From contig JBHLRO010000014.1 in the NCBI GenBank assembly GCA_048882505.1, positions 30,001 to 62,000 of the forward strand: a stretch of DNA of 32,000 nucleotides. The letters run 5' to 3'. Within the stretch, counting starts at the first letter, position 1, and each line of letters starts with the position of its first letter. The notes beneath the pieces are model-generated. The model had not been told where the DNA came from and searched no databases. It worked only from the letters and a program-made list of their open reading frames with translations. A program made the position numbers and the translations under genes. Source of the stretch: Candidatus Thorarchaeota archaeon (GTDB lineage: Archaea; Asgardarchaeota; Heimdallarchaeia; Hodarchaeales; Hodarchaeaceae). Shown here one piece after another: positions 651 to 31,523 of the stretch.

Positions 651-3600
651 TAGGGCACCATATCCACGGCGCCAGCGGCGCCGAAAATTTCGTCTGAACT
701 GGGGGTAAACACTCCGTTTATTGAGAATTCAGGTTTGCCATCGAAATTGGTATCATGCCCGAATCGGATATAGCCAGTAATCTCCTCATAATCGGTTACT
801 CCATCTTTATCGAAGTCGATAATGGACAGGGGATCGAGGAGGACATCAATATCTCCATCAGCATCAATATCGCTGGCGTAATATTCGGGAGTCTGACTTC
901 GATAATCATCTTTCTCACCGTCCATGTCAGTGTCGTAGTAGTCGTAGGTGTGATCGAATTCATCACGCACCGTAAGACCATCGCCATCCCAGTCAGCATA
1001 CTTCCAATAGAGCCAAATATCACTTTCATTTGAGGATTGGGAACCAATGACTTTCACATCATACCTGTCTTTGGGGTCTAATCCGAAGTGGAGTTCATAT
1101 ATGTCCCATATTCCGTCCCTGTCCGTATCGGGGTTGTTGGGATCCGTAGGGTCAAATTCCGTCTGGGGGCCATAGACCACGGCAGCGGCATCAATTGAGG
1201 TTTTGACCATGACATCGGCTTTATCGATAGTGCGGTTGGGGTACTGTTGGTTGAGGAGCGCTTTGGGTAACCCCATCACCTCTTCTACGTCCCAGAGACC
1301 GTCCGAATCGCTGTCTTTCTTGAGCGGGTTCGTGCTTGAATATGAAATAACGTCTAAGACGGTACCCCAGACTGGTCCGTTCTCATCCCAGTCAACAATC
1401 ACATCACGATCCCCGAAAAAGGATCCATAATATTCCTCGATATTGATCAGGGTGTCATTATTCTTATCGACGAACGCAAAATACTCCTCGTAGTCGGTCA
1501 AGCCATCCTCGTCGGAATCAGGGACAAAGGGTGAGGCGGTGCGCCAACAAGTGGGACATGTGCTCTTATTAGCAGGAACCCCAAACGTGGGATGAGTGCC
1601 ATTGTGCCAACCGTACGCAATGCCCGACGTACTATTGGTATCCCATTCATCATAGAAGACTCCGATTTCATATCCGTCAGGTAATTGATCAAAATCCGTA
1701 TCAGGATTGAGAGGATCGGTCAGATACTTGTATTTTTCATCAAAGTCGCCAATAAGATCTCCATCGGTATCGTAAATCCCAGGATGAGTCTCGTACATAA
1801 CCACAATATCGTAGTAGGTGGTGACACCTTCGGTGATCATTCCGATAGTAGAGGGCGCCGTATTTAGACTTAGATTGGCGACAAGATGACCATCCAATGA
1901 CAAAATCACTAGATTCTCGTATCCAGGAATGATATTGTCTTTCATCTTGAACAGGGTCATGTCATACCAGGTGTTGTACGTGAGATTGATCGGAAGGTCG
2001 GTCACTGAAGTGTTGGGTAGACCATCCTTCTCAACGTAGACTGTATTAGTCTCAATGTCTAACATAAAAGCGTGGGTATCAAATGTCAAACCTGCTCGTG
2101 CGTTTGGTCCTGCCATATCGGACGTAGTATTGACCAGATAGATCATCTCAGAGTAAATCCATCGGTCGTCATCCGCGGTAAAAGCAGTGGTTAAGGTTTC
2201 TCGACTGCCGGAATTCTGTGCAACCAAATACTTATTCGACATGTAAATGGCTGGATCAGGATAGGTACGGTCGAACTCAAGTTTGATGCTCTCCACTCGA
2301 ATGATATCCCATTCAGTCCGATCTACTGGCGCTTTAACTGTCACATTCATACCGTATATGTTCTGCCACGAGTTGTATGTGGTTAAGTTAATAATAGAGA
2401 CCTCGTGATACGTCCCGTTAGTGGTGGGAAGTGGATACAACACACCGTCAATATATACGTCTAAGGTGTGGTTAAATTCGTCTAGGTAGCGGGTATCTGT
2501 CGCTTTCAAATTCCACTTCTCAACTGTCCAGGTCACCTGTAATGTTGTGTTCTCTATTATGGACGGGTCGTTAATGTCATCGCATGTGGGCTGAAGTGGG
2601 CCTAAGTCAGGATCGCCACACAGGTTTCCAGGTGTTCCCACTGCATCCCAGGATCGGTTCATAAACTCGGGTAGGAAGACCCAATTCAAGGCAGCATACG
2701 TACCATTATCGATGTATTCTCGCATGGTGATACGGGCTTTCGGATCCCAGATTTGACCTTCTATGCTAAAGGTAGGATCGACCCCATCTTCCGTATCATT
2801 GTCTTCCACTTCTAGACCGTATTCCTCAAAACCCATTGAGTGACCGACGATTTGGGAGAATTTTCCCAGATTGGTTGCCATTGCGTCCCCGTACCATGTT
2901 CCCTGTTTGTCAAACATCACAGTGAAGGACGAGTTTGCTACAGGGGTAGTTGCATTGATATAAGAGGAATCTGACGGTTCCATCGATTTATAGTAATCAG
3001 CCCATGTGGTGTCATTTACATAGGAATAACCGTAGTTGGGGAATAAAGTATGGTGGGAATTCAAGAGTGGCACACCATCTTCGGTTACATTCCAATTTGC
3101 TGGATCACTAATCGTATCCCAAGGCCCGTCAGTCAGAAGGGAGGATGAATTATAATGCCAGAAACTATCCCCGAAAATGACCTCGTCTGTGTCATTTAAA
3201 CCATCGAAATCGCCATCACCGTTTGTTATATCGAAGGAGTAGGATGGAAAATCTAATTCGAATTCTTCCCTGTCCGACATTCCGTCAAAATCGGAATCGG
3301 GAAGAGTCATATCAGAACCATATATTGCCTCTAAGCCGTCCTTCAAGCCGTCACCGTCGAAGTCAGGAACGATCATTGCCAATACGCCCCATAGTTCCAG
3401 CTCGGTATCGAAGAGACCATCATCAGGGAAGTCAAAGGTCGGATGGCAGTCGAAATCATCACCACCAGGCGTGCAGGCCGCACCATAGTTCTGTAGAAAC
3501 CGTTCGTTCTCCATGATGTACTGGAGTTCAATTTCATTCTGAATCCCATCCCCATCCACGTCCTGCATTGAGACGAAATTGACCCCAAACACTGTATCGT

Positions 3601-22871: not shown

Positions 22872-22932
22872 GTTTTTTTCTTGTGTCTTCGGAAAGAGAC
22901 GAATTCCCAGAGGGACACAATTGAGTGGTTCA

Positions 22933-23613
22933 ATGATTACCGTACCCGCCCCTTTTAACAACTGGCTTTCAGAAAGATCGTGTATTTCTTGTGTTTTATC
23001 GCCTCTGTGTAATAGCTTTACCTACAAAGAAATCGCTATCATCCAATTGTTCCTGCGGAAGGCCAAGGAGGGGCGGCACTTCTTTCCCCTCACGGAATTC
23101 CATGAGGAATTTATTAACTACTATTATTATGATAGAGATGGATATTCCACTTTCTACAATGTCATCAATGATTTAGTAACGAGAAAGGCCATCCTGATAA
23201 AGGTAGACGCAGATAAAATCCAGGATTTCAAGATCTCTAATCCCCATGACGTTAAACTGAATAAAAAAGATATCCTATTCTTGCTGAACCCCGCTTATTC
23301 CTTACGATATGAAGACTTCTTTAGCGTTAATTCTACCTGTCCGATTGGCTTGAATCCTCTTTGTTATCGGATCCTCGATGTCTTAACCGACTCTAATGGT
23401 CTCACGTCCCATCAAATTCACCAAATCCTTAACACAGTCCCCACACATGAATACTCACTATTCGAGGAACAAAAATCCAAAACCATTCATATTCAAACTA
23501 TTCGGAAGCGTTTGAACGAACTTGGGGCTATTAACCTGATCATTATTCATCATACCCAACCTACCTTGTATTATCCAAATTATGCACATTATTTGGTAAA
23601 TAAACGGACATAA
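22933..23613 (+). CDS. Tandem winged helix-turn-helix protein, putative transcription regulator
   Basis: C-terminal TrmB/ArsR-like wHTH (LNPLCYRILDVLTDSNGLTSHQIHQILN...IQTIRKRLNELGAINLIIIHHTQPTLYYP) and an N-terminal wHTH-like unit (YKEIAIIQLFL...FPLTEFHEEF...YSTFYNVINDLVTRKAI). No TM or signal peptide. ATG 22933 is preferred over TTG 22921. Confidence 0.7.
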   Translation: MITVPAPFNNWLSERSCISCVLSPLCNSFTYKEIAIIQLFLRKAKEGRHFFPLTEFHEEFINYYYYDRDGYSTFYNVINDLVTRKAILIKVDADKIQDFKISNPHDVKLNKKDILFLLNPAYSLRYEDFFSVNSTCPIGLNPLCYRILDVLTDSNGLTSHQIHQILNTVPTHEYSLFEEQKSKTIHIQTIRKRLNELGAINLIIIHHTQPTLYYPNYAHYLVNKRT

Positions 23614-23626
23614 AGGTGTCATAATC

Positions 23627-26600
23627 GTGTTTATTGCGAAAAATAAGTACCTACTAACAAATCTTATCATTTTTCTCCTTTTGATGGGCAGAGTTGCGGC
23701 CACAGTCCCATTTCTACAAGAGGACGGAGTCAGATCCCGTCCTCTCTCTCCCGAAGCTACAAATGGACTACAATCACTGGGTCCAAAAATTACATCGAGC
23801 GATAAGATCAACATCTCCCTCATAGACCCCCTCAATAATTCCATTGTTAAGGGGGGCACATCAATCATTATTGAGTTCTTAGACGAAAATGGATCGGTTG
23901 TGTCTCCCGTCACCGAACTGTATCGCTGGGATTACGGAGCCAACTTTGAATCCATCCTACGACCCTTACCCGTGTCTGAAGGCAGTCACACGCTAGAAGT
24001 GGAGGTAGAATCAGAATCGGGAATTTGGTCATCAAAAAAATTCGCCTTTAAGAGCGACAACACTCCTCCTCAAATTATTTTGACATCACCAGAGAATGAG
24101 ACATATGTGAATAATTCTGGAGATATTCGAACCTGGGATACCAATTATGTGGGCAGCCTACTTGCTGCAATAAATGTAGACAATATAGATTTCGATTCTC
24201 TCCCCGATATTCTTGTCGGGGGATCCAATGGGCGACTTTATGCGTTTAATGGACGATATGGGACCCCAATCTATTTGACCCCGCAATATGCGACGGCCCT
24301 CACAGAAATCACGGTCTATAATCAGTCTCAAGCACTTCTCGGTCTCGCCAATGGGGATCTGATCGGAGTAAACACGACAGATGGTAATACTGAATGGACA
24401 AATTCAACTGGTACATCCCCAGTGATCGAGATTAGAAACGATAATGACACAAAATCGTTAGTGGTGCTAAATGAAAAGCAGATACGGGTCTTCAATTACT
24501 CGGGAAATGTTGTCTGGGATGTAAATCAGAGTATCACGACCCAGAATACACGGCTGCATTTTACTGATTACCTGGGGGATAACCGATCCGAAATCATCCT
24601 CGTGAATGAAACGTGCTTTGTGAAAAGTTTCAATATCTCAGATGGGGTTCTCATCTTTAACTTTTCAACCTCACTAGCGAGCTACGAATATTCTTTAGTC
24701 GAAAACGATACGATTTACATATCCAGCTCTAATGGGTATGTGGAAAAGTACAATCTTACTGATGGTTCTCTCATCTGGACAAGAGAAGTGGCTGTGTCTC
24801 AAAATATCTATCAGATCACTAAATCCAACGATGCACTCTTCTGTTCGGCCTCAGGTGGAAGTATCACCAAATTGAATGCTACCGATGGTGCCATCCTATG
24901 GAGCCAACAGATATCCTCAAGCTACATTAAGTATTTCTTGATTGAGGATTTTAACCTGGATAATAATCTGGAACTCCTGTTTTTTGATGGGAATGGGGTC
25001 ATAACCAACATGGATGTTCAGACAGGGGACACTACATGGAATTATGGAACATCACTGCATTGTAATGGTATGATTTCATGGGAAGTCACTAACGACTCAA
25101 TCAATGAAGTGATAATCATTACCACCGAAGGTACTTTACTAGCTATAGACCCACGATCAAAAGTCCCTAACCTAGTTCCATCTTGGACAAATGTTACCAT
25201 TGGATTTCAAGATTCAGTTTCTAATGGTATAATATGGGAAAAATACTCTTGGGACGGGAACCCTAATCAGTCATATCCAGGTGTAATCCCTGCCACGAGT
25301 GGAATCCATACTTTGGATGTCTGGGCTAGTGACAATGCCAGTAATATTGCACATGCCCATTATGAGTTTTATGCGGCCATCAATATCCTGCTCAATGGTC
25401 CGCCAAATAATAGTCGCCAACAATCTGGGACATATATCAATCTTACTTTGTCAGAGGCCCCACTAGAAGCTCTCTATAAATGGGATGCTGGTGTTTACCA
25501 AAGCGCCTTAACTAATCTGCCAGTAAGCGAAGTTGTTCACCACCTCTACATCATCCTGAAGGATCAATCATTTAGTACTGTCAACTTCCATTACGTTTTC
25601 ACTACCGACGACACCCCAATTACCTCTATCACTTTGCTTTCTCCCACCAATGACACGATAGTGGAGGGAGGGGAGGCTTTACAGATATCCTTTAGCGAAA
25701 TCCCATTCATTGAACTATATAACTGGGATGGCGGAAGCAACATCACGACAGTGGATAACATCCCCGTCTCAAGTGATACTCATGTCTTAGATGTGTATGC
25801 AGCAGATGAGGCCCTTAACTGGAAATCCATACGATTCGTTTTTTATACGAAAATACAGATAGATTTAGATTCACATACCAATGATACGGTCATAGATCCT
25901 ACCGATGTTCTTTGCTTCTCGTTCGGTGAACCCCCTGATACCTACGTTATCCAGATTGATAATTCATCTCCCATCATATATACAGATCAGAACCAGACTC
26001 TTAATATGTCCTTACACACCGCAAGTAAGACCTATAGACTAACCATTAGTGTTAACGATTCGGTTAATGGGCGGTGGAATAATGAAACCTATTTATTCGT
26101 GGTTAGAATCTTCGTCAACATTACATCACATGCTGATGGTGGATTTGCGGAAACAGGTGATCCATTAACGATTTACTTCTCGGATCCACCGATCACAAGA
26201 TTGTTTTCGTGGGATGGGAATAAGAACAGTAGCAGGATGCCAGTTGTCCCGGCACCAGACGGAGCTCATTACCTTGACATATATGTAGGAAACATCGAGG
26301 GCCAATTCTGGCACTATCATTATGATTTTAACGTGGATACCGATCTGATAGATATTCTCTTGATTAACCCAGTTAATAATACCAAAATCAATTCTTGGGA
26401 AAATGTAACTTTTGATTTTAGTGAACCGCCATTCATAGTCAGCTACCAGTGGGACAATGCCTCTGCGAGTACAAACTTAACCGACATTCCCTCCATTGAT
26501 GGAATTCATATACTGAATGTCACCGTTGAAGATGAAGCAGGGAATACAAACAGTAGATTGTTCAGTTGGATTGTTGATGATACACCGATTGATGTCCAGG

Positions 26601-27448
26601 TCTTTCTTAAAAACAACGATTCGGTCATCCTCACAGGGGAATATCTGAACCTCACCTTTGATGAAGCCCCTGTCGTTGAATGGTATCGATGGGACAACAA
26701 TGGAGGTTTTTCCCCGACTCTACCACCCAATCCTCATACCAATGGTACCCACTCGCTAAATGTGACCGTATATGATGGTCTGAATTGGAATATAGAAATT
26801 TTCAACTTTACAGTTCAGGATCTTCCCCCTATCATTGAAATTGACGATCCAACTAAACCTTACATGTCGGGGATCATACTTTCTATTGAGGTCAACGAAG
26901 ACCTAAGTTCATCGTGGCATAAATGGGATGATGAGGATTCCAAAGAAGGACTGGTCGTCTTCACTCCTGAAGGAAACGACGGGTATCACACCCTGCAAAT
27001 ATTCGCGGTAGATATGGGAGGCTCAACCACCACAATAACTCTGGACATCCTTCTGGACAATACCCCGATCTCTATTACGGAACTATCGCCTGGGAACAAT
27101 AGTCAAGTGAGGGCTGGTACGAATGTCACGATCGTGTATAGTGAAGAACCTTACAATGTATCTTATTCATGGGATGGTAATCTCGCAGCAGGCAGCCTAT
27201 CTCCCATTCCAACAAATACGGGGGAGCATAAGCTGAATATCCGAGCTTACGATGAAGCGGGCAATGTATTGAATGTAGACGTTTACTATGTAATACCCAC
27301 ACCCATAGAAGATTTGTCTCCATATTTAGGAATAATAGGGATCGTTAGCACAGTAGGAGGGGTGCTAATATATGTCAAACGGGAAACAGTACGTAGTGCT
27401 TTGGGTAAAATAAAAGATGTCTTCAAACCCCCCAGACAAGTCAGTTAG
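23627..27448 (+). CDS. Cell-surface glycoprotein: ~10 Ig-like repeats plus PQQ/FG-GAP-like beta-propeller, C-terminal TM anchor
   Basis: GTG start and signal peptide. ~80-aa repeats I.L.SP.N.T...G..I...FSE.P...Y.WD....P...G.H.L.V.A.D.AGN. Propeller blades (DFDSLPDILVGGSNGRLYAFNG, NATDGAILWSQ, DFNLDNNLELL). TM YLGIIGIVSTVGGVLIYV followed by KR. Many NxS/T sequons. Confidence 0.9.
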   Translation: MFIAKNKYLLTNLIIFLLLMGRVAATVPFLQEDGVRSRPLSPEATNGLQSLGPKITSSDKINISLIDPLNNSIVKGGTSIIIEFLDENGSVVSPVTELYRWDYGANFESILRPLPVSEGSHTLEVEVESESGIWSSKKFAFKSDNTPPQIILTSPENETYVNNSGDIRTWDTNYVGSLLAAINVDNIDFDSLPDILVGGSNGRLYAFNGRYGTPIYLTPQYATALTEITVYNQSQALLGLANGDLIGVNTTDGNTEWTNSTGTSPVIEIRNDNDTKSLVVLNEKQIRVFNYSGNVVWDVNQSITTQNTRLHFTDYLGDNRSEIILVNETCFVKSFNISDGVLIFNFSTSLASYEYSLVENDTIYISSSNGYVEKYNLTDGSLIWTREVAVSQNIYQITKSNDALFCSASGGSITKLNATDGAILWSQQISSSYIKYFLIEDFNLDNNLELLFFDGNGVITNMDVQTGDTTWNYGTSLHCNGMISWEVTNDSINEVIIITTEGTLLAIDPRSKVPNLVPSWTNVTIGFQDSVSNGIIWEKYSWDGNPNQSYPGVIPATSGIHTLDVWASDNASNIAHAHYEFYAAINILLNGPPNNSRQQSGTYINLTLSEAPLEALYKWDAGVYQSALTNLPVSEVVHHLYIILKDQSFSTVNFHYVFTTDDTPITSITLLSPTNDTIVEGGEALQISFSEIPFIELYNWDGGSNITTVDNIPVSSDTHVLDVYAADEALNWKSIRFVFYTKIQIDLDSHTNDTVIDPTDVLCFSFGEPPDTYVIQIDNSSPIIYTDQNQTLNMSLHTASKTYRLTISVNDSVNGRWNNETYLFVVRIFVNITSHADGGFAETGDPLTIYFSDPPITRLFSWDGNKNSSRMPVVPAPDGAHYLDIYVGNIEGQFWHYHYDFNVDTDLIDILLINPVNNTKINSWENVTFDFSEPPFIVSYQWDNASASTNLTDIPSIDGIHILNVTVEDEAGNTNSRLFSWIVDDTPIDVQVFLKNNDSVILTGEYLNLTFDEAPVVEWYRWDNNGGFSPTLPPNPHTNGTHSLNVTVYDGLNWNIEIFNFTVQDLPPIIEIDDPTKPYMSGIILSIEVNEDLSSSWHKWDDEDSKEGLVVFTPEGNDGYHTLQIFAVDMGGSTTTITLDILLDNTPISITELSPGNNSQVRAGTNVTIVYSEEPYNVSYSWDGNLAAGSLSPIPTNTGEHKLNIRAYDEAGNVLNVDVYYVIPTPIEDLSPYLGIIGIVSTVGGVLIYVKRETVRSALGKIKDVFKPPRQVS

Positions 27449-28225
27449 ATGGTAGCAACATTGAAACAGTTCAATTACAAGGATTTAGGAGCTATTCTAA
27501 TTATCCTATTTACCATCTCAATAATTTGGTTGGTCTTTTTCTCCCCCAAAGATCAGGTCACCGATCCAGTGGCCATCCTCGAGTCGGCACCTTTTCTAGT
27601 TGGAGCTTTTTTATCGTCCCCGATGTTCTTCTTCCTGATACTTGGTGTTCTCATATATCTAGTTGGTAGTCCTTTGATGTTAGTTCTCTCGAAACCTATT
27701 TTGAATAAATGTGAGTATTGTACGAGTTTGAGGGGTGATGAGGAACCGTATTTAGTAAATGGGCATTGCGTTAATTGCAATCTTCTCATTTGTTCTGAAT
27801 GTTTTAGTCATACGAAGCGTAAGACAGGTTGTCCTAACTGTGGCGCTCAAAAGTATAAGTTTCGCAAAAGATTAGGTTATTTCCGTCTTCGGAAGAATGA
27901 ATGTGGATTTTGCACTCCGATAAGATCGGTCACATCTCCTCTTATCTCGAATGTTCAATGTAGAGGATGTCGGAGAATAATGTGCCACAAATGCTTCCGT
28001 TATGAAAAGAATGACAAAAAATATGGATGTCCGAAGTGTGGGAGTATCGAATTCACTTCAGGAGTGACGGTGGCGTACACCCGTTTACCCCGTTTAAAGA
28101 GAAGGATACATAAAACGCGAAAACGGGTAACCAAGAAATTAGTCCCCTTACAAAGCCAAATAACTAAAAAAAATAACCCCTCTACGGAAATGGTTGAAAA
28201 AGAGGCATACCCCTTCAAGAAGTGA
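27449..28225 (+). CDS. Membrane protein (2-3 N-terminal TM) with two tandem C8 zinc fingers (FYVE/PHD/RING-like) and basic tail
   Basis: CEYC-x15-CVNC-x4-CSEC-x9-CPNC (27710-27841) and CGFC-x15-CRGC-x4-CHKC-x11-CPKC (27902-28039); K/R-rich linker and tail. Start abuts the upstream stop (TAG ATG). Confidence 0.85.
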   Translation: MVATLKQFNYKDLGAILIILFTISIIWLVFFSPKDQVTDPVAILESAPFLVGAFLSSPMFFFLILGVLIYLVGSPLMLVLSKPILNKCEYCTSLRGDEEPYLVNGHCVNCNLLICSECFSHTKRKTGCPNCGAQKYKFRKRLGYFRLRKNECGFCTPIRSVTSPLISNVQCRGCRRIMCHKCFRYEKNDKKYGCPKCGSIEFTSGVTVAYTRLPRLKRRIHKTRKRVTKKLVPLQSQITKKNNPSTEMVEKEAYPFKK

Positions 28226-30966
28226 GTGATCAGGATTTGGTGACATCTTACATGCGGTCAGCTAAACTCTTCCTCCTTCTGATCTGTCTTTCCGCTGTAT
28301 GTACTCACCTTGCTCTCAGCAAGACCTCTAGGAGTGTTATGGGTTTCCATGTAGGAAAACAGAGTTTTGCTCCAAAACAGAGTTTTCGGGCCTCTATTAA
28401 TGGAAGGACGAAAATAAACCAAAATGGAACTCCCCAACAAGATCCCATTAATCTGAAATCATTTCCGCAATCTATCGACTATGATATCAACATAGCATTC
28501 CTTGGTATTTTCGCTGATGAAGTCAATCTGACCAAACTAAAAGAATTGTCACCTAAAACGTCCCAGATAAGTCGTTACGTCCCATTGTCGTATTTATTTG
28601 AGACCTACATCAATTACTCATTAAATTATAATTATTACTTCTTCGGGAGTAGTGTAGCTGGTGAATTTTCAAATGTCCTCTCTAGATATGGGAATTTCAG
28701 TTTTCCAGTAGATATGGCACTATACTGGTCTGGTAGGACCAGTGTAAGTCAATACTCTCGTTTGTCCATCAATGAACCAAAAAACTATTTGTCAACGCTT
28801 TTTGATCCTCAAACGCCCACTATTTTCATTGCGAATCTCTTCCACAACGACTCTACTTTTTATCAAAACCAGAATGCTGAACCACACACATATTTTCTGG
28901 AAAAAGTAGATATTGATACCCAACAGTTCTCAATGCTAAGACAAGATGGGAAATACGCGCCAGGGTTTGATTGGGCGGATCGAAGATGGATTTTCATCGA
29001 TATATCCAGTGGCCCTTCCCCCTATGAGACTTCAAGCGGTGATTTTACTAACTTCGTTGAATTCCGTGAAGGATCCCTTGATGCCTCTGGTGTGGCTACT
29101 GTTTGTGCTAAGATAATAGAGGCAGTAACGTTTTCGAGATTTGTCCCAACCTATCTATATGAACCCACTTGGGATGCAGAGGTTGAGGTAGCGCTTGGAC
29201 TCTTCCACGAATCGAGCTTTGACATTCAGAGTTACATAGACATTGTAGAAATACAAAATTCATTTACTGGACTGCTACCATACTCTACGATTGAGATAAC
29301 GACAAACGATCAAATTTTTCAAAATAATAGTGAATTAGATACTTGGTTACAGTACATTGATAGTTTCACGGATTATACGACGTGGGCATCGAAACTTGTA
29401 GAATTCATGACAAATAAAGAGGATGACCTGTTTGGTGCTGCTGATAAAAAGCGGGTGATGGTGGGGGTATTCGCATTAGATGTTATAGCTGGCCATGATG
29501 ATGCCTTGGGTTTCACCTATGCCCCATTAGGGAGCTCCCATTCATCGGGTAGTGTTGTCACGATCACTCCTACGACTATAACGACTAATGGTGAAGGATT
29601 AACACAAACCATCATCCACGAGATTGGTCATAGTCTCTCTCTCAGGCATCCACACGACTATAGATATGATGGTACTCTATACAAGTTTTGGACTGGGGAC
29701 GTGAGTGAAACCCCCCTCTCATATCTGCATAGTGTGTATGAGTGGGGAGAATTAGATAAGGATATGCTGCACAGGGGGCAATATCGTTACCTCTTCAACC
29801 AGACATCTTGGTTATTGGATGAAATCAAAGCAGAGTCGTTATCGAGAAATTTTCCTGAAAATAGATTCCCTAGGGATATCTATGGAGAACTGAGGAGTGG
29901 ATCCAGCTCTTTTAATCATTCAATAACCCTATTTACCAGTCACAATTACACGGCTGCTTTGCAGGAAATATATCCCGTCTTTCAAGTTATGCAAGACTCC
30001 CTCGCAAATGTTTCGGCCCTGTCAGATTATTTTGCACCAATCGTGAACGTCTACAATGCAAATAATTCGAAAGTTGAATACGGTGACACACTCACCATTA
30101 CAGGTAAGACGGTAACTTATGACATACCGACAGTTCAAATCCTCACGAGTTACAGGGACTATAATGCCAGTCTAGATGTTACTAATTATACGCTCTTCCT
30201 TTATGAAACTGAGTTTCTAATAAGCATACCAACCCTGATTTTTCCCCAAACAAGCAATTTAGATCTTTGGATATGGGTATATGACGGTATTGAATATTAT
30301 AAGTATAATCTTACATTCATTACTCACCTAGTCAGCATAAATATTATATCTCCGATGAACAACATGCTTTTAGATGCTTCTAATGCAGATTCCCTTAAGA
30401 TCTTTGGGGGGTATCAATCCATCTCAAATCGATCCCAACTCCAAATATTGTATGGTTCTTATTGGTATGTAAAAGACCGGGATTTTGAAAATTCAAGTTA
30501 TTGGGTTCCCGTGAATAAGTCTACTGCTTCCACTTGGGAATATACAGTAAATATTTCATCGTTCGTCAATGGTGACAATACCATTAAAGTTCGTATCTTT
30601 AATAACAGGTCAGTTCATACGGATTCTGTCAATCTAAGGATACAAGGGTTACCCCAAAACGAAACAGTACCTGTCGAACCAGATAAACCCCCTCCCATAA
30701 CCACTGATCCTCTTCAAGCCCAACCTCCGAGGTTAATTGATCAACTCCTAATATTTGGACTCATTGGAACCATAGGAATCGTCATCGTTCAGGGGGTAAG
30801 ACAATATTTTCGACAAAAAGGGGAAGAAAGAATTGTTGGGGAGGATATACCCCTTCCTGGACTCTCACGTGAGCTTGAAGAATTAAAACAGAAAATGGCC
30901 GAAAAGGAGAAAAAACGGGTTAAACCCCCCAAAAAGACCGAATTTGTACCAAAAAGAAGGAGATAA
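28222..30966 (+). CDS. Membrane-anchored secreted metzincin-like zinc protease
   Basis: GTG overlaps the upstream TGA (alternative ATG at 28252, MRSAKLFLLLICLSAVCTHLALS signal peptide). IIHEIGHSLSLRHPHD at 29617-29649, C-terminal Ig-like region, Pro-rich linker, TM LLIFGLIGTIGIVIV, charged cytoplasmic tail. Confidence 0.85.
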   Translation: MSDQDLVTSYMRSAKLFLLLICLSAVCTHLALSKTSRSVMGFHVGKQSFAPKQSFRASINGRTKINQNGTPQQDPINLKSFPQSIDYDINIAFLGIFADEVNLTKLKELSPKTSQISRYVPLSYLFETYINYSLNYNYYFFGSSVAGEFSNVLSRYGNFSFPVDMALYWSGRTSVSQYSRLSINEPKNYLSTLFDPQTPTIFIANLFHNDSTFYQNQNAEPHTYFLEKVDIDTQQFSMLRQDGKYAPGFDWADRRWIFIDISSGPSPYETSSGDFTNFVEFREGSLDASGVATVCAKIIEAVTFSRFVPTYLYEPTWDAEVEVALGLFHESSFDIQSYIDIVEIQNSFTGLLPYSTIEITTNDQIFQNNSELDTWLQYIDSFTDYTTWASKLVEFMTNKEDDLFGAADKKRVMVGVFALDVIAGHDDALGFTYAPLGSSHSSGSVVTITPTTITTNGEGLTQTIIHEIGHSLSLRHPHDYRYDGTLYKFWTGDVSETPLSYLHSVYEWGELDKDMLHRGQYRYLFNQTSWLLDEIKAESLSRNFPENRFPRDIYGELRSGSSSFNHSITLFTSHNYTAALQEIYPVFQVMQDSLANVSALSDYFAPIVNVYNANNSKVEYGDTLTITGKTVTYDIPTVQILTSYRDYNASLDVTNYTLFLYETEFLISIPTLIFPQTSNLDLWIWVYDGIEYYKYNLTFITHLVSINIISPMNNMLLDASNADSLKIFGGYQSISNRSQLQILYGSYWYVKDRDFENSSYWVPVNKSTASTWEYTVNISSFVNGDNTIKVRIFNNRSVHTDSVNLRIQGLPQNETVPVEPDKPPPITTDPLQAQPPRLIDQLLIFGLIGTIGIVIVQGVRQYFRQKGEERIVGEDIPLPGLSRELEELKQKMAEKEKKRVKPPKKTEFVPKRRR

Positions 30967-30971
30967 CCATT

Positions 30972-31523
30972 GTGCGAAGAAAAACTAGCATTCTAGTCTG
31001 TTTATTAAATTTAGTGTTGATAGCGAACGCTACGATTCAAGGTACCGTGTTTACCATCGATTCATACTCAATAAATCAAGTTTGGGAGATAATGCAGACA
31101 ACCGACGAATTTCTGATAATCGATGACAGGCCATATTCGGAATATGTCGAAGGGCATATCCCAACAGCTATCAGCATCGAGCTGAAGGAGACGGTCGATC
31201 CCACAGAAGTAGATACAATCAATGCTTACGGAAAGGAGTATAATATCCTTTATTGTGCCTGTCCAAATGGGGAGAATTCGGAGCATCATGCTGAAGAGCT
31301 CGTCAAGTTAGGCCTTGATTCTATCTCTTACATGCACGAGAGTTTTACTGATTGGGGATATCAAATCGTTACGGGTTCGGAACCAGGCGTATTGGTTTCC
31401 ACGACAATTCCCACCTCTACCCCCGATGGGGGATCGCCTCCACCACCGCTTTCGGATTTAATTTTAGTAAATCTGGTTTTGGTCATGGTCGCTGGACTCA
31501 TCATCTATTGGAAGAAGAAATGA
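30972..31523 (+). CDS. Secreted, C-terminally anchored rhodanese-domain protein
   Basis: Signal peptide; IIDDRPYSEYVEGHIPTAISI; active-site loop YCACPNGENS; YMHESFTDW; Thr/Pro linker; TM LILVNLVLVMVAGLIIYW followed by KKK. Confidence 0.85.
   Translation: MRRKTSILVCLLNLVLIANATIQGTVFTIDSYSINQVWEIMQTTDEFLIIDDRPYSEYVEGHIPTAISIELKETVDPTEVDTINAYGKEYNILYCACPNGENSEHHAEELVKLGLDSISYMHESFTDWGYQIVTGSEPGVLVSTTIPTSTPDGGSPPPPLSDLILVNLVLVMVAGLIIYWKKK

What the first reader, a model, noticed from the sequence alone, without database searches (positions are those of the whole stretch)
27449..28225. Membrane-anchored tandem FYVE/RING-like C8 zinc fingers: possible eukaryotic-signature protein
Both 64-aa-spaced units have C-x2-C-x15-C-x2-C-x4-C-x2-C-x9/11-C-P-x-C. 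The central HCVNCNLLICSEC / QCRGCRRIMCHKC resembles FYVE and rabphilin-type fingers, while the terminal GCPxC resembles C4C4 RING and PHD fingers. They are flanked by polybasic stretches (KYKFRKRLGYFRLRK; RLKRRIHKTRKRVTKK) behind 2-3 TM helices. Cross-brace Zn fingers on membrane proteins serve in eukaryotes as lipid sensors or E3 ligases. One co-transcribed with archaeal surface proteins would be notable.
Basis: partly seen in the sequence, partly recalled or inferred. Interest (0 to 1): 0.72.

Follow-up and report, generated by a model that had tools for sequence, protein, structure and literature searches.

The report
Membrane-anchored tandem RING-like zinc fingers
A small membrane protein of a Hodarchaeales-type (Asgard) archaeon carries two predicted RING-like zinc fingers on its cytoplasmic side and is always encoded between a giant surface protein and a membrane-anchored protease; it is a new, very narrowly distributed family, and there is no evidence yet that it senses lipids or ligates ubiquitin.

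Summary
ORF 27449-28225 (+) encodes a 258-aa protein with an N-terminal membrane hairpin and two C8 units with exactly the spacing described.

It is a real gene. Exhaustive HMMER over 1.84 billion proteins finds only 10 related clusters. All have a membrane hairpin plus one C8 finger; one other has two. All eight Cys plus an Arg, a Phe and G-C-P are invariant.

Wherever flanking DNA was read, the gene sits between the Ig/beta-propeller surface-protein gene and a metzincin-like (HExxHx5H) protease gene. Cassette and finger co-occur in only 2 of 83 genomes of the class, both in one genus.

The AlphaFold model of the finger (pLDDT 76) matches almost only RING, U-box and B-box domains, but weakly (best Z 5.0, Foldseek E >= 0.15). 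No Pfam family reaches its cut-off. The FYVE signature motifs are absent.

The genome holds E1, E2s, ubiquitin and canonical RING-H2 domains with the same ligand spacing, none of them near this operon.

Best reading: a cytoplasm-facing C4C4 RING-like adaptor dedicated to a surface-protein/protease module. E3 ligase activity is possible (about 0.25) but unshown.

The scan has noted other membrane RING-like proteins in other Hodarchaeales genomes, but not this family.

The parts
27449..28225 (+). CDS of the 258-aa membrane-anchored tandem C8 finger protein (P0001), stop codon included
   Evidence: homologues
27482..27541 (+). TM helix 1 (about residues 12-31)
   Evidence: hydropathy; AF2 helix 10-31
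27542..27583 (+). Short acidic loop (residues 32-45) with a family-conserved D-P, predicted to lie outside the cell
   Evidence: few or no K/R in this loop in most members
27584..27703 (+). Second hydrophobic region (residues 46-85), read as a single out-to-in membrane pass plus an interfacial helix
   Evidence: AF2 helices 40-56 and 58-84; inferred from the positive-inside rule
27710..27841 (+). C8 finger 1 (C88..C131), C4C4 RING-like
27842..27901 (+). Polybasic linker (residues 132-151). It matches the conserved post-finger G-x3-F...L-[AG]-Y...P tail of the single-finger homologues.
   Evidence: alignment
27902..28039 (+). C8 finger 2 (C152..C197), a fast-diverged duplicate that keeps all ligands
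   Evidence: long branch
28040..28222 (+). Basic C-terminal tail, predicted helical (217-241) at low confidence
23627..27448 (+). Upstream partner gene: 1273-aa Ig-like/PQQ beta-propeller surface protein with a C-terminal anchor and a short basic tail
   Evidence: Pfam PQQ_2 5.6e-21 and Big_13 9.4e-11; synteny
28222..30966 (+). Downstream partner gene: metzincin-like (HExxHx5H) protein with a signal peptide, a C-terminal anchor and a conserved Lys-rich cytoplasmic tail. The likely true start is the ATG at 28252.
22921..23613 (+). First gene of the operon, a 230-aa winged-helix-like protein (only sub-threshold Pfam hits)
   Evidence: a homologue at the same position in L033
30972..31523 (+). 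Membrane-anchored rhodanese, also conserved in the related operon L033

Best explanation
P0001 is a real two-pass (N-in/C-in) membrane protein. Its cytoplasmic part is two tandem all-Cys (C4C4) RING-like binuclear zinc fingers followed by basic tails. It belongs to a small family without a Pfam model, restricted so far to a few Hodarchaeales-type Asgard genomes and sediment metagenomes. In that family the ancestral form has one finger.

The gene is a fixed third component of a cassette made of a giant Ig/beta-propeller surface protein and a membrane-anchored metzincin-like protease.

Most likely mechanism (inferred):
- The membrane hairpin docks onto the C-terminal anchors of the two co-encoded surface proteins.
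- The zinc fingers form a cytoplasmic protein-protein interaction and dimerisation platform for their conserved cytoplasmic tails. The tandem copy may mimic a RING/B-box dimer within one chain.
- This platform would control assembly, clustering or turnover of the module.

Whether the platform also recruits an E2, making it a true E3, is open.

Shown here: gene reality, ligand pattern, conservation, synteny, co-distribution and charge asymmetry. Predicted only: the cross-brace fold. Inferred: binding partners and role.
For: Gene and family:
- Exhaustive HMMER finds 10 related cluster representatives at E <= 1e-10. All are 159-211 aa with a membrane hairpin plus a C8 finger.
- There is a paralogue in the same genome and an orthologue in a genus mate.
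- Invariant across 13 fingers: 7 of the 8 Cys (the eighth is scored 'nearly invariant' only because one row is offset in the alignment; all 8 are found in every finger), plus R, F and G-C-P.

Fold:
- The AF2 single-finger model has pLDDT 75.7.
- Foldseek's top hits are predominantly RING domains such as BIRC7, cIAP2, IDOL, RNF13 and c-Cbl.
- In the Foldseek-independent VIA-align scan of 48,161 chains, nearly all of the 50 rows shown are RING, U-box, B-box or SP-RING. Best is the Bre1 RING, Z 5.0, rmsd 2.6 over 52 residues.
- ESM Atlas neighbours include zf-C3HC4, TRIM and B-box clusters.
- In both AF2 models a helix starts at Cys5/Cys6 in each finger, as in treble-clef and RING site 1.
- The genome's own zf-RING_2-scoring domains have the same ligand spacing, C-x2-C-x12-16-C-x2-C-x4-H-x2-H-x10-C-x2-C.
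- Weak sequence hits go to the CesA C4C4 RING, aligning Cys3 to Cys8 in register.

Context:
- The gene abuts its neighbours with a 0-nt gap and a 4-nt overlap.
- In all 7 contigs with readable DNA it lies between the Ig/PQQ gene end and the HExxH gene. Gene calls on two further contigs agree for the upstream gene.
- The finger profile hits 2 of 83 class genomes. Strong full-length HExxH hits occur in the same two.

Topology:
- The C-terminal part has 39 K/R against 12 D/E, and the TM1-TM2 loop is acidic across the family.
- The cytoplasmic tail of the HExxH protein is conserved among its homologues (consensus).
Against: - All structural matches are below the tools' own significance marks (Foldseek E >= 0.15; Z <= 5, where Z under 8 may be only a common arrangement).
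- Zinc ligation cannot be read from the model, and I had no access to its coordinates.
- No RING, B-box or other Pfam family reaches its cut-off. Sub-threshold hits also include plain zinc ribbons (OapC 6/13, DZR_2 2/13) and FYVE_2 (5/13).
- hhalign against the genome's RING-H2 domains gave only a 35% off-register match.
- No physical interaction with the neighbours has been tested. Translational coupling and co-distribution show a functional link, not binding.
Confidence: 0.55

Rival explanations
1. It is an active membrane-bound RING E3 ubiquitin ligase. The fingers recruit one of the genome's E2~Ub conjugates and ubiquitylate the Lys-rich cytoplasmic tails of the co-encoded surface protein and protease. 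This would be analogous to eukaryotic MARCH or PA-TM-RING ligases, and would feed the targets to the Asgard ESCRT or proteasome systems.
For: - The predicted fold is RING-like.
- The genome holds 4 UQ_con E2 hits, 3 ubiquitin hits, a ThiF-type E1 and JAB proteins.
- One of the E2s is UbcH5-like, with the Phe of the P-F-x-P-P motif and a W-S-P-A loop. That these residues contact RINGs is from my own knowledge of UbcH5.
- Family-invariant residues sit where RINGs contact E2 (position mapping from my knowledge of c-Cbl, not tested): an aromatic between Cys1 and Cys2, and Pro after Cys7.
- Both neighbours end in basic, Lys-containing cytoplasmic tails.
- Asgard E1/E2/RING cascades have been shown to work in vitro (bioRxiv 10.1101/2023.07.25.550441; PMC5654768).
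Against: - No ubiquitin-system gene lies in or next to the operon in any of the contigs read.
- No RING Pfam model reaches its cut-off.
- The genome already has canonical RING-H2 domains carrying the Trp-containing helix, which this family lacks.
- The residue after Cys8 is mostly Gly, not the Arg/Lys 'linchpin' of many active RINGs (the linchpin rule is from my own knowledge).
- The E2 is present in 39 of 41 relatives while this family is in 2 of 83, so there is no co-distribution signal.
Confidence: 0.25
2. The two C8 units are pairs of sequential zinc ribbons (double-zinc-ribbon type). They serve as a generic structural or nucleic-acid/regulator-binding module, for example tethering the operon's winged-helix protein to the membrane in the manner of an anti-sigma factor.
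For: - Sub-threshold Pfam hits go to ribbon families: OapC 6/13 (best 0.0008), DZR_2 2/13 (0.002), NOB1 and TFIIB ribbons.
- The best PDB sequence hit is an archaeal RNA polymerase zinc-ribbon segment.
- The operon begins with a winged-helix-like gene that is also present in L033.
- The tails are strongly basic.
Against: - The AF2 models place a helix at Cys5/Cys6 and match RING-like folds, with ribbon-type proteins only far down the Foldseek list.
- The invariant C-P-x-C and C-x2-C-F motifs are RING-like.
- All ribbon-family hits are far below their cut-offs.
Confidence: 0.12
3. The fingers are FYVE-like lipid-head-group sensors that bind phosphoinositide-like archaeal lipids.
For: - The central C-x2-C-x4-C-x2-C spacing is shared with FYVE (spacing from my own knowledge).
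- There are sub-threshold FYVE_2 hits in 5 of 13 fingers, best 0.0032, and very weak PDB sequence hits to two FYVE proteins at E 0.77 and 5.4.
- Polybasic stretches flank the fingers.
Against: - The defining basic R(R/K)HHCR patch, WxxD and RVC motifs are absent, and the corresponding positions are not conserved.
- Pfam FYVE gives no hit on the ORF or in the genome.
- No FYVE domain appears among the structural matches listed.
Confidence: 0.03

Closest known systems
C4C4 RING-type zinc finger at the N-terminus of plant cellulose synthase CesA (Pfam zf-UDP PF14569; PDB 1WEO, 6WLB)
   Same: - All-Cys eight-ligand finger with the same central spacing, C-x2-C-x4-C-x2-C-[FY] ... C-P/x-x-C. It aligns in register over Cys3-Cys8.
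- It is the most frequent RING-type sub-threshold Pfam hit, 6 of 13 fingers.
- It is a cytosolic finger attached to an integral membrane protein. From my own knowledge, it is generally regarded as an oligomerisation module rather than a proven E3.
   Different: - Scores are far below the cut-off (best 17 bits against 27.1).
- Here the finger follows a two-helix membrane hairpin, with no glycosyltransferase attached.
- It is archaeal, tandemly duplicated, and in a different genomic context.
Archaeal/Asgard small RING finger E3 ligases of the ubiquitin operons (Caldiarchaeum srfp, PMC5654768; Helarchaeial RING E3, bioRxiv 10.1101/2023.07.25.550441), and this genome's own zf-RING_2-type domains (A5)
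   Same: - Same phylum-level setting.
- Same eight-ligand spacing as the genome's own RING-H2 domains.
- Predicted RING-like fold.
   Different: - Those are RING-H2 (His at ligands 5 and 6), mostly soluble and encoded in E1/E2/Ub clusters.
- This family is all-Cys, membrane-anchored and encoded in a surface-protein/protease cassette.
- There is no profile-level similarity.
Eukaryotic transmembrane RING ligases (MARCH RING-CH with two TM helices; PA-TM-RING RNF13/RMR, PDB 5ZC4 and 7BVW among the Foldseek rows)
   Same: A small protein with membrane helices and a cytoplasmic RING-like finger, placed next to membrane proteins that have short Lys-bearing tails. RNF13 and RMR1 RINGs appear among the Foldseek matches.
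   Different: - There is no sequence-level relationship.
- The ligand type differs (C4C4 against C4HC3 or RING-H2).
- The domain order differs from MARCH, where the RING precedes the TM helices.
- Ligase activity is not shown here.
FYVE domain (Pfam PF01363)
   Same: Eight Cys with the same central spacing, and nearby basic residues.
   Different: It lacks the WxxD, R(R/K)HHCR and RVC signature motifs. There is no Pfam hit, and no FYVE domain among the structural matches listed.

Membership tests
FYVE (PF01363) | Basic R(R/K)HHCR motif around Cys3, which forms the PI3P pocket | tested here: not met
   Finger 1 reads V-N-G-H-C-V-N-C and finger 2 reads S-N-V-Q-C-R-G-C. The family consensus is L-V-N-G-x-C with a variable x.
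FYVE (PF01363) | N-terminal WxxD motif and an RVC motif at Cys7 | tested here: not met
   There is no Trp before Cys1. Cys7 is preceded by an invariant Gly and followed by Pro (G-C-P).
FYVE (PF01363) | Profile match over the gathering score | tested here: not met
   No FYVE hit at E <= 1 on the ORF and none at E <= 0.1 in the whole genome. FYVE_2 is only sub-threshold in 5 of 13 fingers.
RING finger (superfamily of RING-like binuclear treble clefs) | Eight Zn ligands as four pairs with RING-compatible spacing | tested here: met
   The spacing is C-x2-C-x15-C-x2-C-x4-C-x2-C-x9-13-C-P-x-C. The zf-RING_2-scoring domains of the same genome have the same spacing.
RING finger (superfamily of RING-like binuclear treble clefs) | Cross-brace (interleaved) ligation with a beta-hairpin, a helix starting at ligands 5/6 and a C-terminal strand (features as listed in PMC4506424) | tested here: inconclusive
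   The AF2 model (pLDDT 76) has these elements. Its neighbours are almost exclusively RING, U-box and B-box.
RING finger (curated Pfam families: zf-RING_2, zf-C3HC4 types, zf-RING_4, zf-UDP, Prok-RING_4) | Profile match over the gathering score | tested here: not met
   Best scores are Prok-RING_4 at 18.5 bits (cut-off 27) and zf-UDP at 17.1 bits (cut-off 27.1). No family is over its cut-off for any of the 13 fingers.
RING E3 ligase (functional class) | Binds an E2~Ub conjugate and stimulates ubiquitin transfer | not testable with these tools
   Only compatible residues (C-x-[YF]-C, C-P-x-C) and the presence of E2s in the genome can be stated. This needs biochemistry.
PHD finger | C4HC3 ligand set (His at ligand 5) | tested here: not met
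   Ligand 5 is Cys in all 13 fingers.
B-box (PF00643, PF22586) | Profile match and a B-box ligand set ending in His | tested here: inconclusive
   Sub-threshold hits occur in 5 of 13 fingers (best 0.034). B-box structures are among the VIA-align rows at Z 3.2-4.0. The ligands here are all Cys.
Double zinc ribbon / sequential ribbons (DZR_2, OapC, etc.) | Two independent rubredoxin-like knuckle pairs, with a profile match | tested here: inconclusive
   Hits are sub-threshold only: OapC 6 of 13 (0.0008) and DZR_2 2 of 13 (0.002). The models predict a helix at Cys5/6, which ribbons lack.

The most novel reading that the evidence does not exclude
A prokaryotic counterpart of the eukaryotic transmembrane RING ligases (MARCH or PA-TM-RING type). 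In this reading the protein is a membrane E3 encoded together with its own substrates. It ubiquitylates the cytoplasmic tails of a giant surface glycoprotein and its sheddase-like metzincin, and hands them to the Asgard ubiquitin-ESCRT or proteasome machinery. That would be ubiquitin-dependent turnover of cell-surface proteins arising before eukaryotes.
Probability: 0.2. Interest if true: 0.8.

Novelty: new variant of a known kind. Interest (0 to 1): 0.45.

Why it matters
Hodarchaeales are among the archaea placed closest to eukaryotes, and they carry a working-type ubiquitin system.

A RING-like finger tethered to the membrane and hard-wired to a surface glycoprotein and a membrane protease offers a compact test case. 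With one small protein and two known neighbours, one can ask whether Asgard archaea already couple zinc-finger or ubiquitin machinery to the fate of surface proteins. In eukaryotes that coupling underlies receptor down-regulation and ESCRT sorting.

If instead the protein is a non-catalytic adaptor, it still defines a new unannotated family and names the third subunit of a lineage-specific surface module.

The very narrow, patchy distribution argues against it being an ancestral eukaryotic-signature protein.

Tried and rejected
- Word-indexed homologue search, near lengths: found only the protein itself.
With P0001 it found nothing. With the neighbour alignment A3 it returned one locus, which supplied the taxon name.
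- PDB sequence searches with the protein and with the profile gave nothing below E 0.005.
- hhalign of the finger profile against the genome's six RING-H2 domains gave 35% probability, off-register, which is uninformative.
- Complex prediction of finger 1 (A2) with the UbcH5-like E2 (A4) returned 'no answer' (score 0.03, mark 0.32). This counts neither for nor against binding.
- ESM Atlas feature search of residues 83-218: best score 0.83, below the 0.9 lead level.
- The full-length AF2 model has low confidence (pLDDT 58, pTM 0.28), so the relative packing of the two fingers was not interpreted.
- The tree of the 13 fingers is unresolved (0 starred branches). I could not decide whether the two-finger forms P0001 and P0005 arose independently.
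- Sequencing-run look-up: no RNA holder is listed, only sediment-metagenome DNA runs of one study, one of them probably the source.
- NCBIfam gave no hit for P0001.
- PHD was rejected on ligand type.
- The ESCRT review PMC10936438 and PMC12962969 contain nothing on membrane RINGs.

Full report
**Observation**

The ORF at 27449-28225 (+) is open and encodes 258 aa. Its ATG directly follows the TAG stop of the upstream 1273-aa gene. Its TGA overlaps a GTG of the downstream gene; the signal-peptide-like start of that gene is an ATG 27 nt further on.

A regex check places the cysteines at 88/91/107/110/115/118/128/131 and at 152/155/171/174/179/182/194/197. This is exactly the described C-x2-C-x15-C-x2-C-x4-C-x2-C-x9/11-C-P-x-C, with the units 64 residues apart. 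Both polybasic stretches are present.

Hydropathy gives TM1 at about 12-31, an acidic loop, and a 40-residue hydrophobic region at 46-85.

**A real, conserved, but very small family**

- The word-indexed search found only the protein itself.
- Exhaustive HMMER over 1.84 billion cluster representatives found 10 relatives at E <= 1e-10. All are 159-211 aa.
- All share the membrane hairpin followed by one C8 finger. P0005 also has two fingers.
- The genome itself has a single-finger paralogue (P0002, contig C23), and one genus mate has an orthologue (P0003).
- Across 13 finger copies that share only 30-50% identity, all eight Cys are present (one row is offset at Cys8 in the alignment). An Arg four residues after Cys2, the Phe after Cys6 and G-C-P at Cys7 are invariant. 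A post-finger F...L-[AG]-Y...P motif is conserved.
- The second finger of P0001 is a long branch, 4.0 against a median of 0.89, but keeps every ligand. The tree is otherwise unresolved.

**Taxon**

The orthologous contig of the genus mate is JAEOTY010000408.1, 'Candidatus Hodarchaeota archaeon YT5_056'. The genome holds eukaryote-type E2 (UQ_con) domains, which hit none of the 14 control genomes. This agrees with earlier scan notes that call the genome Hodarchaeales-type Asgard.

**Context**

- In the window the order is: winged-helix-like gene, 1273-aa Ig/PQQ-propeller surface protein, the finger gene, a 914-aa protein with H-E-x-x-H-x5-H (metzincin spacing; weak Reprolysin, serralysin and astacin hits), an anchored rhodanese, and a membrane protein.
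- tblastn shows that in all seven contigs with readable DNA the finger gene lies between the C-terminal end of an Ig/PQQ homologue and an HExxH homologue.
- Gene calls on two further contigs show the same large upstream gene.
- One complete related operon (L033) repeats winged-helix, Ig/PQQ, finger, HExxH and rhodanese, then VKOR.
- The finger profile hits only 2 of 83 species genomes of the class, both in one genus. Strong full-length hits of the HExxH protein fall in the same two genomes.
- The three genes therefore form a co-inherited accessory cassette that is patchy even within the genus. The closest relative by E2 identity (G016, 93%) shows no hit.

**Topology**

The region after the hydrophobic segments has 39 K/R against 12 D/E. 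The loop between the hydrophobic segments is acidic and nearly free of K/R across the family, with a conserved D-P. By the positive-inside rule the protein is N-in/C-in, which puts the cysteine-rich fingers in the cytoplasm. This is inference.

**Fold**

- No Pfam or NCBIfam family reaches its cut-off for the protein or for any of the 13 fingers.
- Sub-threshold hits scatter over zf-UDP (6/13), OapC (6/13), FYVE_2 (5/13), B-box (5/13), Prok-RING_4 (4/13) and DZR_2 (2/13).
- An AF2 model of finger 1 built on the 13-row alignment has pLDDT 75.7. It shows a beta-hairpin around Cys3/4, a helix beginning at Cys5/6 and a strand after Cys8.
- Those are the elements listed for RING-like binuclear treble clefs in PMC4506424.
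- Foldseek against the PDB lists mainly RING domains (BIRC7, cIAP2, IDOL, RNF13, c-Cbl, XIAP, TRIM), but at E >= 0.15.
- The Foldseek-independent VIA-align scan of 48,161 chains gives 50 rows that are nearly all RING, U-box, B-box or SP-RING. Best is the Bre1 RING, Z 5.0, rmsd 2.6 A over 52 residues.
- ESM Atlas neighbours include zf-C3HC4, TRIM and B-box clusters.
- No FYVE domain appears in these lists. One PHD row is at Foldseek rank 27, and a few ribbon-type proteins lie far down that list.
- The scores are modest, as expected for a domain of about 60 residues, and are below the tools' own marks. I therefore treat 'RING-like cross-brace' as predicted, not shown.
- Two independent points support it. 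The genome's six zf-RING_2-scoring domains have the same ligand spacing, with H-x2-H in place of Cys5-x2-Cys6. The CesA C4C4 RING aligns in register over Cys3-Cys8.
- Profile-profile comparison with the genome's RING-H2 set was uninformative.

**FYVE, PHD and E3 readings**

- FYVE: the basic R(R/K)HHCR, WxxD and RVC signatures are absent, and the corresponding positions are variable. Pfam FYVE hits nothing in the ORF or in the genome.
- PHD: it needs His at ligand 5, which is Cys here.
- E3, in favour: the genome encodes an E1, JAB proteins, four E2-type domains and three ubiquitin-type genes on contigs C9, C11 and C18. One E2 is UbcH5-like with a W-S-P-A loop. The family keeps an aromatic between Cys1 and Cys2 and a Pro after Cys7, positions that contact E2 in canonical RINGs (mapping from my own knowledge).
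- E3, against: none of the ubiquitin genes is near either copy of the cassette. The family lacks the Trp-bearing helix of the genome's canonical RINGs.
- One complex prediction with that E2 gave no verdict. It counts neither way.

**Conclusion**

The finding is a genuine new family of membrane-anchored, cytoplasm-facing C4C4 RING-like zinc-finger proteins. It is here tandemly duplicated, and it serves as the fixed middle gene of a surface-protein/metzincin cassette in a few Hodarchaeales-type archaea.

My estimates are:
- 0.55 for a zinc-stabilised cytoplasmic adaptor or dimerisation platform for the anchors and tails of its two neighbours;
- about 0.25 for a true membrane E3 ligase;
- about 0.12 for a ribbon-type regulator tether;
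- about 0.03 for a FYVE-like lipid sensor.

The 'eukaryotic signature' label is not justified by present evidence. There is no significant similarity to a eukaryotic family, and the distribution is very narrow. The architecture does parallel eukaryotic transmembrane RING proteins.

Earlier scan notes describe other membrane RING-like proteins in other Hodarchaeales genomes. A by-sequence look-up found this family only in this window.

Noticed in passing
window 2-21037 (-): A giant ORF of more than 7012 codons runs off the window. The Logan contig gene call gives 13,315 residues. It is transcribed divergently from the operon that holds the finger gene.
   Followed up: no
L002 (G000 contig C23) and G012 contigs C234, C114, C210, C35: The whole Ig/PQQ - finger - HExxH cassette is duplicated in this genome. 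The HExxH gene is present in several fragments or copies in the genus mate G012. This points to a locally expanding accessory surface module.
   Followed up: partly
window 28222-30966 (+); alignment A3: The 914-aa neighbour has metzincin spacing (H-E-x-x-H-x5-H). It also has a roughly 55-residue Lys-rich cytoplasmic tail with a conserved extreme C-terminus (E-F-x-P-K-R-R-R) shared by its homologues.
   Followed up: partly
window 30972-31523 (+); L033 9517-10708: A rhodanese domain with a signal-like N-terminus and a C-terminal anchor follows the protease gene. In the related operon L033 it is followed by a VKOR-family protein. This suggests extracytoplasmic thiol/disulfide chemistry in the module.
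   Followed up: no
L025 (G000 contig C9) about 1460-2000 (-): The E2 gene of the E1-E2-JAB-ubiquitin cluster has no ATG, GTG or TTG near its expected N-terminus, so it is missed by ORF listing. It keeps the H-P-N motif and the catalytic Cys. It may use an unusual start codon.
   Followed up: no
L076-L081 (six places in G000); alignment A5: Six RING-H2-type domains share the pattern C-x2-C-x12-16-C-P-x-C-x4-H-x2-H-L-x-E-W-L...C-P-x-C (two of them score over the zf-RING_2 cut-off). They sit in proteins of about 113 to 1045 aa. One is about 25 kb downstream of this window on the same contig (C14:83286) and one is near the C11 ubiquitin/E2 genes.
   Followed up: partly
P0007 (L075 1325-1960): This 211-aa homologue has a near-repeat of its own N-terminal membrane-hairpin sequence after the finger. 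It looks like a partial tandem duplication of the gene, with the second finger missing.
   Followed up: no
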